Shown here: positions 16,901 to 60,697 of the stretch, one piece after another
How positions within the stretch are numbered: the first letter of the stretch is position 1
Layout: each line of letters starts with the position of its first letter
Source: a virus
Length of the DNA stretch: 64,000 nucleotides
Reading direction: 5' to 3' (one strand)
IMG/VR virus record: IMGVR_UViG_3300025118_000005
Coordinates: 1 to 64,000 of that record
Position numbers and translations under genes: made by a program
Notes under the pieces: model-generated
What the model was told of the DNA's origin: nothing
Seen by the model: only the letters and a program-made list of their open reading frames with translations
Database searches by the model: none

Positions 16901-17465
16901 TGTTGCGGAAATTGGTGCGAAATCTCGTTTAGAGACTAGCAGTCTGGTAGCCGAAAGTGAATGCTCTGGGAAAACGTATCCATAACAAGGAGCAGGAGCG
17001 AAACGATAGGTATCGGGCGGGGTTCGAATCCTCAACGCGACGACAATTTAGCATAGGTGACGGAACAAACGTCCGACAGAGGAAACGGCCTATGCGACAA
17101 TTTAAGCTGACGACGGTCGGCTTAAGGGTATGGCTGAATATCCCTCCATCATAAGGGGAAAGGCATAGGGCCATGTGAGAGAGTGCAATCGTATGACTTG
17201 CATGGTTCTAGTAAGCTGGAAACAAGAACTGTATTGTGCACTGGCTTTGTAGGTAATGCAGCAATCCTACTACCCATTAATTTTCGTGGTGCTGGATTAC
17301 AGGCCATGATTAACAGACGCGCCTCAAACGGAAAGCAGGGAAGTATTCCACCTGTCGGCAAGAGAGGGAAGCCGTGGCGCGATAACTGAGAACTCACAAT
17401 TTTTCCTGTGGTCGGTACAACCGTTAAAGAGATTGTAGGTACCAACGCCGAAGTCCGCCACGTCA
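16901..17465 (+). ncRNA. array of four structured non-coding RNAs, first with a tRNA-like 3' end
   Basis: Units are closed by terminal helices (GTTGCG/CGCGAC; GCATAGG/CCTATGC; GGGTA/TACCC; CGTGG/CCACG) and separated by AATTT linkers. T-arm GGGG-TTCGAAT-CCTC in unit 1. Confidence 0.65.
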
Positions 17466-58460: not shown

Positions 58461-59951
58461 ATGTCAGATGTTAAAATCAATAGAGTAAACAGGAACTTTA
58501 CGATTAAAGTCCATTTATATTACGATGCTTCATCAAAAAATCGTGATTCTGACAGTAATCCTCGATTTTATTTAAAGCCCGTATCGTTATTAAATGTTGA
58601 AAAGGTAGCTTTCACAGATGACGGGGGGCGAAAAAATAATTATACTAAATATGGAAATAGATTTTGGAAGTGGAAGTCCGATGATACGCTATCTGACGCT
58701 CAGGTGGAAGCTATTTATAATAAAATTAAAGATAATTATCCATATGGACACATAGAAAATGATCTTGCCACAGAAAATAAATATATTCTTGACGTAAAGG
58801 AAAATAAAGCTTTTCAATCTTTTTATAAAACTTATTGGGAAAACCATGCAGATGAAATAAAACAACCGAAAACTGTTCACGAAGAACAAAAGGACTATCC
58901 TCATCCTTACATATCGTTTATTTCTAACGAAATTATAACTTATAAATATACAGTTGGAGACGTGCCTGTCGTCCCAATTCAAACAGATTTAGCATATGAT
59001 TATGTTTCTGGAATAAATAATTATTATGCTCAGCCGCAAGATTATTCTTGTAACAGTGATGAGATATCTGTTTCTGTAGTAGGGAGTGTCTCTGGAGTAA
59101 CAGGGTTTAACAATTATTTTGTGACTGAAGGCTTCTATGAATACCCACTTAAACTAAAAGCCAGCGGTAGACACAGATTTGATTTATGGAGCGGAGACGA
59201 TCATTACGGAGGAGCCACTTGGCCAACTGGTGTAGACGGTAATTACAGCGGCTTTAGATTTAGATTTAGCACTGGGCTTGAAGGGACTTTGGCAGGATTT
59301 AATGATTATACAGATGGGATTTCTTATCACGAGGGTCCTGAGATAGGAAATTATTATGTAAAAGTATTAACTAAAACTCCCGCTTCTACGCCCGGGGACG
59401 ATTACCACCCCTATATTGATACTGGTAGCTCGTTAGGGTATGCTTTGAGCGGAAGCGGGGGAACCGCTACGGGAGTTAACTCTGGAGCGTATTCCCTTGG
59501 TTACGATGAAGGCCCAGTGATAACACTAAGGAGAGAGTCTACATATTACTTTAATCAACAGAATGCCTCAAACGAGGGACACCCAATATATATTTCTACT
59601 GATCCGTCAGGGGCTGGTTCCGATGTATATACGAGCGGAGTCTCTCATTTTCCGCAGGACCGAAAGTACATAAGCGGGGGCCAATATTTTACGACTTTTG
59701 AGGTCCCTTATAATGCCCCTAATACTTTATATTATTCTTGCGAGAATCACACTTATATGGGGGGTAAGATAAATATTATTGATTCTCCCGCACCTACTGG
59801 TTCTGGTCGTATACCGGGAGAAAGCATCGTCCTTAATTCTACCGGTACGGGAGATTTTGTTTTACGATACTATTCTCCAGAAGGCTCTGGAATGGGGGGA
59901 TTAGCGCTAATGAAGAAGGACTGTGGAGCAAGTGCTATGTTCGGAACGTAA
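58461..59951 (+). CDS. putative virion protein with C-terminal cupredoxin-like domain
   Basis: L.R..TY.F.Q...N.GHP..IS...APNTLYYSCENH.YMGG.I motif common in phage virion proteins. Confidence 0.65.
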   Translation: MSDVKINRVNRNFTIKVHLYYDASSKNRDSDSNPRFYLKPVSLLNVEKVAFTDDGGRKNNYTKYGNRFWKWKSDDTLSDAQVEAIYNKIKDNYPYGHIENDLATENKYILDVKENKAFQSFYKTYWENHADEIKQPKTVHEEQKDYPHPYISFISNEIITYKYTVGDVPVVPIQTDLAYDYVSGINNYYAQPQDYSCNSDEISVSVVGSVSGVTGFNNYFVTEGFYEYPLKLKASGRHRFDLWSGDDHYGGATWPTGVDGNYSGFRFRFSTGLEGTLAGFNDYTDGISYHEGPEIGNYYVKVLTKTPASTPGDDYHPYIDTGSSLGYALSGSGGTATGVNSGAYSLGYDEGPVITLRRESTYYFNQQNASNEGHPIYISTDPSGAGSDVYTSGVSHFPQDRKYISGGQYFTTFEVPYNAPNTLYYSCENHTYMGGKINIIDSPAPTGSGRIPGESIVLNSTGTGDFVLRYYSPEGSGMGGLALMKKDCGASAMFGT

Positions 59952-59958
59952 CTTTAAT

Positions 59959-59987
59959 TTGACTTAAAGAGGAAATGGTATTATAAT
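59959..59987 (+). promoter_or_regulatory. sigma70-type promoter of the ribozyme locus
   Basis: TTGACT-N17-TATAAT. Confidence 0.85.
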
Positions 59988-60003
59988 ATAATAGATTTAA
60001 AAA

Positions 60004-60298
60004 TCGGCCTTATTGGGTGAATTCGGTGGAACTCTCTCGTAGACAATACCGAGCCAAGCTAGAGATGGTTTAAAGTTCTCTAGAAGGTGTAGAGACTAGA
60101 CGGTGAGAACCAAACGATAATCCGTCCACGAGCGCCCAACACCGTAAAGGTGAAGATATAGTCCGAACTACATGGCGACATGTAGAAGCCGTAATTAAAA
60201 AAGCGACGATAACAAATTGGACTACGCGATTAGTGCAGTGTACTAACCATGGGTTATGTACCTCATGGCATAAGTAAACTAAATTGTGTGTCGGCTGA
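60004..60298 (+). ncRNA. group I intron ribozyme with apparently circularly permuted topology
   Basis: P3 TTGGGTG/CGCCCAA; P4 TTCGGT/ACCGAG; P6; P7 GACTA/TAGTC; P7.1 GACGG/CCGTC; P8 CACC/GGTG; J8/7 GAAGATA; P9 CTACATG-GCGA-CATGTAG; terminal G 60220. P1 CAU/GUG and the P2 strand lie downstream. Confidence 0.85.
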
Positions 60299-60307
60299 GT
60301 CTTAATT

Positions 60308-60697
60308 ATGGCAGCGAAGAAAAAAGTAACGGAAAAGAGTACGGCAAAAAAAGTCGAGAACCTGACGCAAACTGACGGAATGGTGAAGGGGGAGACCTCT
60401 GTTCCGTCATCTTTAGATCAGGTTTGGGGGGACGATGGAACATCAAAATATAAAACTTTAAATCTTGACGTATATGAACGAGTACTTAGTAACATGTCAA
60501 AATCTGATTTAAAAGCGGAAGCTGTTAGAACAGGTTTATTGCCTATAGATAATATGGATCAATTAAGGATTAGGCTCATAAGAGAATTTAGGGCTCATGT
60601 CTCTTCCTATAAGAGGCCAACCGGCTTAAAAAGAGAGTCTGTTGATGATCCAAATTTAGATCCAGATGTTCGTAAAATTTTAAGCGAAGGCAAATAA
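60308..60697 (+). CDS. hypothetical protein
   Basis: 129 aa, starts 9 nt after the ribozyme. Confidence 0.7.
   Translation: MAAKKKVTEKSTAKKVENLTQTDGMVKGETSVPSSLDQVWGDDGTSKYKTLNLDVYERVLSNMSKSDLKAEAVRTGLLPIDNMDQLRIRLIREFRAHVSSYKRPTGLKRESVDDPNLDPDVRKILSEGK

What the first reader, a model, noticed from the sequence alone, without database searches (positions are those of the whole stretch)
59959..60302. Apparent natural circularly permuted group I intron predicted to release a 51-nt circular RNA
SEEN: a TTGACT-N17-TATAAT promoter (TSS ~59994) is followed within ~19 nt by a complete group I core (P3 60013-19/60133-39, P4, P6, P7, P7.1, P8, P9) ending ACAAATTGG at G60220. There is no host gene and no room for a 5' exon, P1 and P2 before P3. 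The missing parts sit downstream of the terminal G. GCAT|AAGTAAACTAAATTGTGTG (60268-60290) can fold as P1 (C69-G90, A70-U89, U71.G88 wobble, A72-U87). GGCTGA (60293-98) pairs with TCGGCC (60004-09) just before P3, so P2 is formed from the two ends of the RNA. KNOWLEDGE (from memory): CCGAGCCAAGC, GAAGGTGTAGAGACTAGACGG and the CAU/GUG P1 match the Azoarcus tRNA-Ile intron. The order 3'-intron, exon, 5'-intron is the engineered permuted intron-exon design used to make circles, and natural permutation is known for group II introns. INFERENCE: splicing joins U60271 to A60221, giving a 51-nt circle with two hairpins (TTAGTGC/GTACTAA; CCATG-GGT/ACC-T-CATGG). A competing ~14-bp helix (60220-33 with 60279-92) would hide the IGS and could act as a switch. 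Cleavage would also create a new 5' end for the 60308 mRNA. I cannot confirm whether natural permuted group I introns are already described.
Basis: partly seen in the sequence, partly recalled or inferred. Interest (0 to 1): 0.93.

Follow-up and report, generated by a model that had tools for sequence, protein, structure and literature searches.

The report
Stand-alone rewired phage group I ribozyme
A marine phage carries a complete self-splicing-type (group I) RNA enzyme that interrupts no gene, has its own promoter and has its cutting site moved behind it, so it should cut the transcript just ahead of the next gene and probably close a conserved 77-base RNA into a ring, a layout known from RNA engineering but, as far as I could find, not described for natural phage ribozymes.

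Summary
The group I core and its promoter are real (Rfam RF00028, 67.7 bits; TTGACT-17-TATAAT). The element is not a one-off. 27 distinct marine phage loci carry it directly upstream of homologues of the 129-aa gene.

However, it is P1, not P2:
- Its G60006.U60296 wobble is invariant (23/23).
- The closest ordinary introns lack P2 and have their guide sequence at exactly this place before P3.

U60271 is not conserved, and its "competing" 14-bp helix is in fact the best-supported helix.

Predicted reaction (inferred, not shown):
- Guanosine attacks after U60296, 11 nt before the start codon.
- U60296 then joins G60220, with omega G = G60219 by homology.
- This gives a 77-nt circle (76 if G60220 is omega): a long stem plus a pseudoknotted hairpin.

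No RNA evidence could be obtained here. Earlier notes of this scan describe the same family on other genomes. In print I found this layout only for engineered "self-targeting" constructs and one coral mitochondrial intron.

Verdict: observation largely right, mechanism right in kind, wrong in detail.

The parts
59959..59987 (+). Sigma-70-like promoter (TTGACT, 17 nt, TATAAT). The predicted transcription start is about 59994.
   Evidence: 11/12 match. A match of at least 9/12 ends 7-29 nt before the guide in 14 of 22 homologous loci. The sequence between the -10 box and the guide is not conserved.
60004..60009 (+). Internal guide sequence (UCGGCC), the 3' strand of P1. G60006 is the wobble partner of the splice-site U.
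   Evidence: Pairs with 60293-98. Pair counts: UA13/CG6/UG4 at 60005/60297, GC21/AU2 at 60007/60295, GU 23/23 at 60006/60296. It sits where the guide of P2-less relatives sits: L328 GGAUCG-AAA-P3, L354 GGGGAA-UUAAAA-P3.
60010..60012 (+). J1/3 linker (UUA) between the guide and P3.
   Evidence: Alignment A2: the last two positions are nearly invariant. L328 has AAA at the same place.
60013..60219 (+). Group I catalytic core, ending in omega G.
- P3: 60013-19 with 60133-39
- P4: 60023-28 with 60047-52
- P5, P6
- P7: 60094-98 with 60159-63
- P7.1: 60099-103 with 60122-126
- P8: 60140-52
- P9: 60168-85
- P9.1: 60188-92 with 60203-07, with invariant loop AAUUAAAAAA
- Tail GAUAACAAAUU, then omega G = G60219
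   Evidence: Rfam RF00028, 67.7 bits. Covarying pairs in P3, P4, P6, P7.1, P8, P9 and P9.1. 69-81% identity to introns of Clostridium phage phiCP13O and Bacillus phage SP-15. The placement of omega G follows in-frame exon junctions of relatives...UG|GAC...UG|GAA.
60220..60296 (+). The 77-nt 'exon' domain, predicted to be released as a circle.
- Stem X: 60220-34 with 60278-92
- Hairpin: 60247-53 with 60262-68
- 3-bp pseudoknot: 60235-37 with 60257-59
- Its last four bases, GGCU (60293-96), are the 5'-exon strand of P1.
   Evidence: RNAalifold and pair counts on 28 sequences. Stem X is 97.4% paired with 13/14 pairs compensatory. The hairpin has 7/7 pairs compensatory. The pseudoknot is 100% paired with 3/3 pairs compensatory. 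The slices holding the domain measure 82-87 nt.
60293..60298 (+). Substrate strand of P1 (GGCU|GA). The predicted 5' splice or cleavage site lies between U60296 and G60297.
   Evidence: GGYU is invariant in 28 sequences. It is followed by RA, which pairs with U60004 and Y60005.
60308..60697 (+). Downstream gene (129 aa, Lys-rich N-terminus, SAP-like helical core). Its mRNA would begin 11 nt before the AUG after cleavage.
   Evidence: 53 homologues. The distance from the predicted cut to the ATG is 10-39 nt in 26 of 28 loci. The fold is (weak).

Best explanation
This is a promoter-driven, stand-alone group I ribozyme in 'guide-first' order.

Layout:
- The RNA starts about 10 nt before its internal guide sequence (60004-09).
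- The guide is joined to P3 by three bases. There is no P2 and no upstream 5' exon.
- The guide pairs with GGCU|GA at 60293-98, behind the ribozyme's own 3' splice site. This forms P1 with the canonical U.G wobble (U60296.G60006).

Predicted chemistry:
1. Free guanosine or GTP attacks after U60296. This severs the ribozyme and the 77-nt domain from the mRNA of the 129-aa gene, which then starts with the added G, 11 nt before its AUG.
2. The 3'-OH of U60296 attacks behind omega G (G60219) and joins to G60220. This closes 60220-60296 into a 77-nt circle and frees the linear ribozyme.

The circle would be a 14-bp stem capped by a GGCU loop, carrying a pseudoknotted hairpin. The first two bases after omega G (GA) can replace the RA that follows the cut site on the guide. 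That is a minimal P10.

Shown: the architecture, its conservation and the covariation.
Inferred: both chemical steps, the circle, and any biological role.
For: Core:
- Rfam RF00028 scores 67.7 bits.
- The catalytic elements are invariant in 23 homologues whose neighbouring protein is only 45-65% identical.

No room for an upstream P1:
- A promoter lies directly upstream in most loci.
- There is no conserved upstream sequence.

P1:
- It is 98.6% paired.
- Both pairs flanking the wobble show compensatory changes.
- The G.U itself is invariant, with G on the ribozyme strand, as at a 5' splice site.

Homology:
- Canonical introns share the same P9.1 loop and tail, and their exon junctions are confirmed by reading frame (capsid genes: GGYLFP|DEFRA in L354, ..LANTI|YNISPSD in L328).
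- These relatives are P2-less and have guide, a short A-rich linker, then P3 in the same register.

Omega G:
- The GG is invariant in 28 sequences.
- Relatives have U-omegaG followed by an exon G.

Feasibility:
- Engineered constructs with exactly this order (ribozyme, insert, target site) circularise the insert with P1 alone (PMC10457212).

Selection:
- Ribozyme-bearing loci cluster on the protein tree: 5 changes against 25.5 in shuffles, 0/500. This points to long vertical retention.
Against:
- P10 is only 2 bp.
- In the precursor G60220 is paired with C60292, and the 3' splice site lies four base pairs from the wobble along a stacked helix. The second step therefore needs a rearrangement.
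- Only about three independent compensatory events support P1.
- An invariant G.U could also be a tertiary or metal-binding contact.
- 109 of 136 homologous loci manage without the ribozyme, so it is dispensable for the gene.
- Whether omega is G60219 or G60220 is not settled by conservation.
Confidence: 0.55

Rival explanations
1. Cleavage only. P1 forms as above and guanosine cuts after U60296 (or omega G is used only for hydrolysis), but no ligation follows. The element would then be an mRNA 5'-end processing or translation-activating device. The 77-nt domain would stay on the ribozyme as a structural or protein-binding appendage.
For: - The cut site lies 10-39 nt before the ATG in 26 of 28 loci, and only 2 nt before it in L128. 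The start region abuts the folded ribozyme until cleavage.
- P10 is minimal.
Against: - The invariant GG at the 3' splice site and the intact tail are unexplained if the second step is not used.
- In L163 an intrinsic terminator follows the substrate strand and the gene has its own upstream region. There, mRNA processing cannot be the point.
- Engineered analogues ligate with P1 alone.
Confidence: 0.17
2. The end-to-end helix is a structural clamp (like P10/P2 of the lariat-capping GIR1 ribozyme). Under this reading the only reaction is hydrolysis or another reaction at omega G. That would leave an mRNA whose 5' end is buried in stem X.
For: - By position, the 5' strand just before P3 and the 3' strand after the catalytic site resemble GIR1 (knowledge; Roth et al. 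discussion).
- Stem X begins at the base after omega G, like a long P10.
Against: - The invariant G.U has splice-site orientation, and relatives carry their guide at this very place.
- Rfam assigns the core to ordinary group I, and no other family hit the window here.
- P3 and P7 are ordinary, and no P15-type rearrangement was seen.
Confidence: 0.1
3. Non-catalytic relic. A decayed intron is kept as a structured leader, for RNA stability, as a protein-binding site, or as a transcription or translation buffer.
For: The ribozyme is dispensable in 109 of 136 homologous loci. No activity data exist.
Against: - All core elements are invariant (P7 strands, J8/7, J6/7, P3, P4), and helices are kept by compensatory changes across deep divergence.
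- Relics do not keep omega G, the wobble pair and the guide together.
Confidence: 0.08
4. P2 is split between the RNA ends. P1 is CAU|A (60269-72) with UGUG (60287-90). Splicing joins U60271 to A60221 and gives a 51-nt circle, with stem X acting as a competing switch.
For: The pairing can be drawn in this window. The strand before 60293 lies where a guide would lie if 60293-98 were P2.
Against: - Only 61.8% paired. A60270 is present only in this window. The U60271 column is C in most sequences, so there is no conserved U.G.
- The same bases are held in stem X by 13 compensatory pairs.
- The nearest relatives have no P2.
Confidence: 0.03
5. An ordinary intron of a long 5' UTR, whose 5' exon and P1 come from read-through transcripts of the upstream gene.
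For: Rfam's alignment places a P1/P2 on 59976-60011.
Against: - That alignment lies on the promoter, has U-A instead of U.G, and is not conserved.
- Upstream genes differ between loci.
Confidence: 0.03

Closest known systems
Canonical P2-less phage group I introns of the same sequence subfamily: IMG/VR loci L354/L364/L365/L367 and L328 in capsid genes, and L299/L308. More distant relatives that keep a P2 hairpin: the tape-measure intron of Clostridium phage phiCP13O and the intron next to the recA-like gene of Bacillus phage SP-15.
   Same: - The core is the same: P3-P9, a P7.1 hairpin, and a P9.1 loop AAUUAAAAAA with the tail GRUAACA..UG.
- The order guide, short linker, P3 is the same.
- There is a U.G wobble in P1.
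   Different: - They interrupt protein genes, and their 5' exon lies upstream. Splicing restores a reading frame.
- Here the substrate strand lies 77 nt behind omega G, a promoter replaces the 5' exon, and no gene is interrupted.
[quoted passage not shown] 2023, PMC10457212), and permuted intron-exon (PIE) constructs.
   Same: - The order is ribozyme with guide at the 5' end, then omega G, insert, and a target site ending in U.
- The insert is circularised by two transesterifications.
- P1 alone suffices.
   Different: - Those are man-made, with long inserts.
- This element is natural, conserved in at least 27 phage loci, has a 77-nt structured insert, and continues into an mRNA.
Back-spliced giant group I intron ND5-717 of mushroom-coral mitochondria (Chi et al. 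2019, PMC6545197, as cited in PMC8637638).
   Same: A natural group I precursor with exons in permuted order that is resolved by back-splicing into a circle.
   Different: There the product is a circular coding RNA that restores ND5 in an organelle. Here the element is a compact, promoter-driven, non-coding cassette in phages. I read that paper only through its abstract and a citation.
Lariat-capping (GIR1) ribozyme.
   Same: A group I-derived ribozyme that sits directly upstream of an ORF and defines the mRNA 5' end. Its 5'-proximal strand pairs with sequence behind the catalytic site (knowledge).
   Different: GIR1 has no P1, has a remodelled core, and makes a 3-nt lariat by branching. Here the core is ordinary and a canonical P1 wobble is present.
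[quoted passage not shown] 2021, PMC8637638).
   Same: Stand-alone, permuted self-splicing ribozymes of bacteria that abut no ORF-restoring exons and release RNA circles.
   Different: A different ribozyme class and chemistry (branching).
c-di-GMP-dependent allosteric group I ribozyme in a Clostridioides difficile 5' UTR (reviewed in PMC3984707).
   Same: A group I ribozyme domesticated in a 5' UTR, where choice of the attack site decides whether the mRNA is translatable.
   Different: It has a conventional exon order and a riboswitch aptamer. No aptamer or other Rfam family was found here.

Membership tests
Group I intron (Rfam RF00028) | Conserved catalytic core (P3-P9 with the P/Q/R/S elements) | tested here: met
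   67.7 bits against a gathering score of 50. Core helices covary in 23 homologues.
Group I intron (Rfam RF00028) | P1 formed by an internal guide sequence, with a U.G wobble at the 5' splice site | tested here: met
   Present, but with the substrate strand downstream: 60004-09 with 60293-98. G.U is 23/23 and the flanking pairs are compensatory.
Group I intron (Rfam RF00028) | Terminal omega G at the 3' splice site | tested here: met
   The GG at 60219-20 is invariant in 28 sequences. It is homologous to the omega G of introns whose junctions are fixed by reading frame.
Group I intron (Rfam RF00028) | It is an intron: it interrupts a gene, with the 5' exon upstream and the 3' exon downstream, and splicing restores a functional RNA | tested here: not met
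   The element is intergenic. A promoter lies 16 nt before the guide. The 5' splice site is downstream of the 3' splice site. The 'exons' are a 77-nt non-coding domain.
Group I intron (Rfam RF00028) | Guanosine-dependent self-splicing activity | not testable with these tools
   Needs in vitro transcription or raw RNA reads.
Permuted / self-targeting group I design (PIE, STS) | The 3' splice site precedes the 5' splice site on one transcript, with the guide at the 5' end | tested here: met
   The order is guide 60004-09, omega G 60219, cut site 60296/97. The design is described in PMC10457212.
Permuted / self-targeting group I design (PIE, STS) | Product is a covalently closed circle of the intervening sequence | not testable with these tools
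   Only assembled contigs of RNA runs could be laid. No junction test was possible.
Lariat-capping ribozyme (GIR1) | No P1; a remodelled core with a P15 pseudoknot and a lariat fold after omega G | tested here: not met
   The best and only Rfam family is Intron_gpI. P3 and P7 are ordinary, and a P1 with a wobble exists.
Riboswitch-controlled allosteric group I ribozyme | A ligand aptamer adjoining the ribozyme | tested here: not met
   No other Rfam family overlaps the element at the gathering threshold. None was found at E up to 10 in 60205-60315, the stretch searched at that threshold.

The most novel reading that the evidence does not exclude
Marine phages encode a dedicated, promoter-driven group I ribozyme whose purpose is to manufacture a small, highly structured circular RNA (77 nt, stem plus pseudoknot). 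That RNA would have a function of its own, for example as a stable decoy or as a partner of the SAP-like protein encoded next to it. The same cut would time translation of that gene. This would be the first natural group I circle-maker outside an organelle, and a natural counterpart of the engineered circRNA designs.
Probability: 0.4. Interest if true: 0.9.

Novelty: new variant of a known kind. Interest (0 to 1): 0.8.

Why it matters
- Group I ribozymes are textbook introns. A conserved family that is not an intron would show that phages have domesticated this ribozyme for RNA processing or for making small circular RNA.
- The family has its own promoter, its guide first and its cut site behind the 3' splice site.
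- It would give a natural, compact (about 300 nt) and P2-less scaffold for circular-RNA production.
- It would add a new class of phage non-coding RNA, the 77-nt pseudoknotted circle, whose target is unknown.
- The prediction can be tested directly in a test tube with one transcript.

Tried and rejected
RNA evidence:
- The look-up of sequencing runs found DNA holders and five RNA runs with small shares.
- Laying X19-X22 gave only Logan contigs of relatives: L156-like and L131-like leaders, and some contigs running through both predicted sites. There were no joints and no ends.
- This says nothing for or against processing, because DNA carry-over is possible and contigs cannot show ends.

Tools and searches that led nowhere:
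Neighbourhoods came from the search for related loci instead.
- The genome-contig scan used too loose a pattern. 102 of 103 hits were chance matches in GC-rich coding DNA. Only L445 (a MAG labelled Pseudomonadales) holds a family member.
- Rfam found nothing on the 77-nt domain. ARAGORN found no tRNA or tmRNA. I considered and dropped a permuted-tRNA reading, because the domain has two helical elements rather than three arms.
- The MFE fold of the whole RNA was not informative for a pseudoknotted ribozyme.
- Pfam and PHROGs gave nothing for the 129-aa protein. Foldseek gave only weak SAP-domain matches.

Readings rejected:
- The 12-mer shared with the ribozyme-less locus L002 is not a repeated promoter word in this window.
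- Rfam's own P1/P2 placement on the promoter, because it has no U.G and is not conserved.
- A true omega G further downstream (G60293/94), with the 77-nt domain as P9.x, because no 5' splice site would then exist.

Not tested:
- The Azoarcus comparison could not be run.

Full report
**What is in the window**

- Between ORF 58461-59951 (tail-fibre-like, phrog_677) and ORF 60308-60697 (129 aa, no family) lies a 356-nt spacer.
- It opens with TTGACT-17-TATAAT at 59959-59987, an 11/12 match and the best in 3 kb.
- Rfam's group I model matches 59972-60185 with 67.7 bits against a cut-off of 50.
- The P1/P2 part of that match lies on the AT-rich promoter. It has U-A where a U.G is required.
- The 3' two-thirds of the element is 69-81% identical to bona fide introns: in the tape-measure gene of Clostridium phage phiCP13O, and next to the recA-like gene of Bacillus phage SP-15.
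- The Clostridium match runs exactly to ...ACAAAUGG. This places omega G at 60219/60220.
- The window is an IMG/VR phage record of 79.5 kb. It holds only this one group I match.

**It is a family**

- The 129-aa protein has 53 relatives in marine metagenomes.
- I fetched 160 loci that encode them.
- 27 distinct loci carry the same ribozyme immediately upstream of the gene. 109 do not.
- The ribozyme-bearing loci cluster on the protein tree: 5 gains or losses against 25.5 in shuffles, 0/500. Terminal branches are about 0.5-1 change per site.
- So the element has been retained over long divergence.
- In an alignment of 23 full elements (A2) the catalytic strands are invariant. P3, P4, P6, P7.1, P8, P9 and P9.1 are kept by compensatory changes.
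- Upstream of the guide only promoter-like hexamers are conserved by position. A match of at least 9/12 ends 7-29 nt before the guide in 14 of 22 loci.
- There is therefore neither room nor conserved sequence for an upstream 5' exon and P1.

**The end-to-end helix**

- Position 60005/60297 is U-A in 13 sequences, C-G in 6 and U.G in 4.
- Position 60007/60295 is G-C in 21 and A-U in 2.
- G60006.U60296 is a wobble in all 23.
A60270 exists only in this window. The supposed splice-site U60271 is C in most sequences.
- The bases that this P1 needs are instead held in a 14-bp stem, 60220-34 with 60278-92. In that stem 13 of 14 pairs show compensatory changes.
It is the conserved structure, not an alternative.

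**Why the end-to-end helix is P1, not P2**

- A scan for the family's invariant P9.1 loop and tail found canonical introns with the same 3' domain.
- In the capsid-gene introns the exon junctions are fixed by reading frame. L354 gives ...GGYLFP|DEFRAQV.... L328 gives ...LANTI|YNISPSD....
- These introns have no P2. The guide is followed by a short A-rich linker and then P3:
  - L354: GGGGAA-UUAAAA-UCGGGUG
  - L328: GGAUCG-AAA-UCGGGUG
  - L299: GGUCUUG-UAAAA-UCGGAAG
  - This element: UCGGCC-UUA-UUGGGUG
- So 60004-09 sits at the guide position.
- The invariant G.U has the orientation of a splice-site wobble: G on the ribozyme strand, U on the substrate strand.
- The pairs on both sides of it covary, as expected for P1.
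- The 5' splice site is therefore after U60296, downstream of the 3' splice site.

**Omega G and the second step**

- In the relatives omega G is preceded by U, and where the frame fixes it, it is followed by an exon G (...AUG|GAC......AUG|GAA...).
- By homology omega is G60219 and the '3' exon' starts at G60220.
- G60220 A60221 repeat the R60297 A60298 that follow the cut site. They can take their place on U60004 and Y60005 of the guide, giving a 2-bp P10.
- Ligating U60296 to G60220 would close 60220-60296 into 77 nt (76 if G60220 is omega).
- The slices holding the domain measure 82-87 nt in all 28 sequences.
- The domain folds into stem X, a hairpin (60247-53 with 60262-68; 7/7 pairs compensatory) and a 3-bp pseudoknot (60235-37 with 60257-59). 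The pseudoknot is 100% paired, with types GCA/UGC, GCC/GGC, GGG/CCC and GUA/UAC.
- After ligation, C60292-G60220 would close a GGCU loop.
- No Rfam family or tRNA model matches the domain.

**Mechanism and its status**

- Shown: the architecture, its conservation, the covariation and the homology of each part.
- Inferred: guanosine attack after U60296, exon ligation to G60220, release of a 77-nt circle, a free ribozyme, and an mRNA beginning 11 nt before its AUG.
- Feasibility rests on engineered 'self-targeting and splicing' constructs of the same order. These circularise their insert with P1 alone (PMC10457212).
- Weak points: P10 is minimal. The 3' splice site sits four base pairs from the wobble on a stacked helix, so a rearrangement is needed. 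No RNA data could be obtained.

**Context**

- The predicted cut lies 10-39 nt before the ATG in 26 of 28 loci, and 2 nt before it in L128. This suggests that cleavage frees the start region from the folded ribozyme.
- In L163 an intrinsic terminator follows the substrate strand, and the gene has its own upstream region. There the cassette looks like a separate transcription unit. This favours the ribozyme's own RNA product, the circle, as the point of the system.
- The ribozyme-less loci have a capsid-like gene, a terminator and a promoter-like stretch in front of the gene. So the ribozyme is not needed for the gene as such.
- The protein has a confident three-helix core. It gives only weak matches to SAP-type nucleic-acid-binding domains.

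**Comparison with what is known**

- In the held literature I found three kinds of precedent:
  - permuted or self-targeting group I designs, only as engineered constructs;
  - one natural case, the back-spliced giant ND5-717 intron of coral mitochondria;
  - natural permuted group II introns.
- A 2014 review of bacterial group I introns mentions neither permuted nor intergenic forms.
- The element fails the defining test of an intron, because it interrupts nothing. It meets the structural tests of a group I ribozyme.
- It resembles GIR1 only in lying before an ORF.

**Earlier notes of this scan**

- After I had reached this reading (stated), a look-up showed that follow-up agents had described the same family on other genomes. 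They gave the same guide-downstream pairing and a 76-nt ring.
- One note reports an RNA head-to-tail joint for a 72-nt relative. I could not test that.
- These notes are not independent evidence.
- My one difference is the placement of omega at the first G, giving 77 nt. It is based on frame-fixed junctions of relatives.

**Verdict**

- The best-supported reading is a natural guide-first (P1-permuted) group I ribozyme.
- Confidence: about 0.75 in the P1 assignment, about 0.55 in the full reaction.

Noticed in passing
window 17105-17280 (+): manA RNA motif (Rfam RF01745, 72.7 bits against a cut-off of 55.2).
   Followed up: no
L126-L283 (ribozyme-less loci), about 25-45 nt before the ATG of the 129-aa homologue: In 109 loci the gene follows a capsid-like ORF and a strong intrinsic terminator. 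Next comes a promoter-like stretch with a recurring GTGTA word. It may be a phage-specific promoter element.
   Followed up: partly
window 60278-60289 and L002 2954-2965: An identical 12-mer, ACUAAAUUGUGU, is shared with a ribozyme-less homologous locus. There it lies on the GTGTA stretch. Here it is the 3' strand of stem X. Whether it is a remnant of a lost ribozyme, shared ancestry or convergence is unresolved.
   Followed up: partly
L163 1385-1415: An intrinsic terminator lies 10 nt after the P1 substrate strand, followed by a separate upstream region for the gene. In this relative the ribozyme cassette looks like its own transcription unit.
   Followed up: partly
L128, 2 nt after GGCU: The start codon lies 2 nt behind the predicted cut. 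The processed mRNA would be practically leaderless.
   Followed up: no
window 60308-60697: The 129-aa protein has a Lys-rich, low-confidence N-terminus and a confident three-helix core (residues about 50-100). It gives only weak Foldseek matches to SAP domains (3'hExo, DEK, Rho N-terminus, Tho1). It has no Pfam or PHROG family.
   Followed up: partly
L445 (contig of a MAG labelled uncultured Pseudomonadales): A family member with the same guide-linker-P3 start lies on an 18-kb contig binned with a marine gammaproteobacterium. This is a weak host hint or a mis-binned phage contig.
   Followed up: no
L364, L365, L367, L287, L285, L003: Canonical relatives of the ribozyme carry endonuclease-like ORFs inside the intron (in P6 or between P7.1 and P3'). 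They sit in capsid, tape-measure and other structural genes.
   Followed up: no
window 60146-60186 in RNA runs X20-X22: Very high contig depth (up to about 50,000) falls only on the conserved P8-P7-P9 words. It comes from other, abundant group I introns in seawater metatranscriptomes, not from this phage.
   Followed up: no
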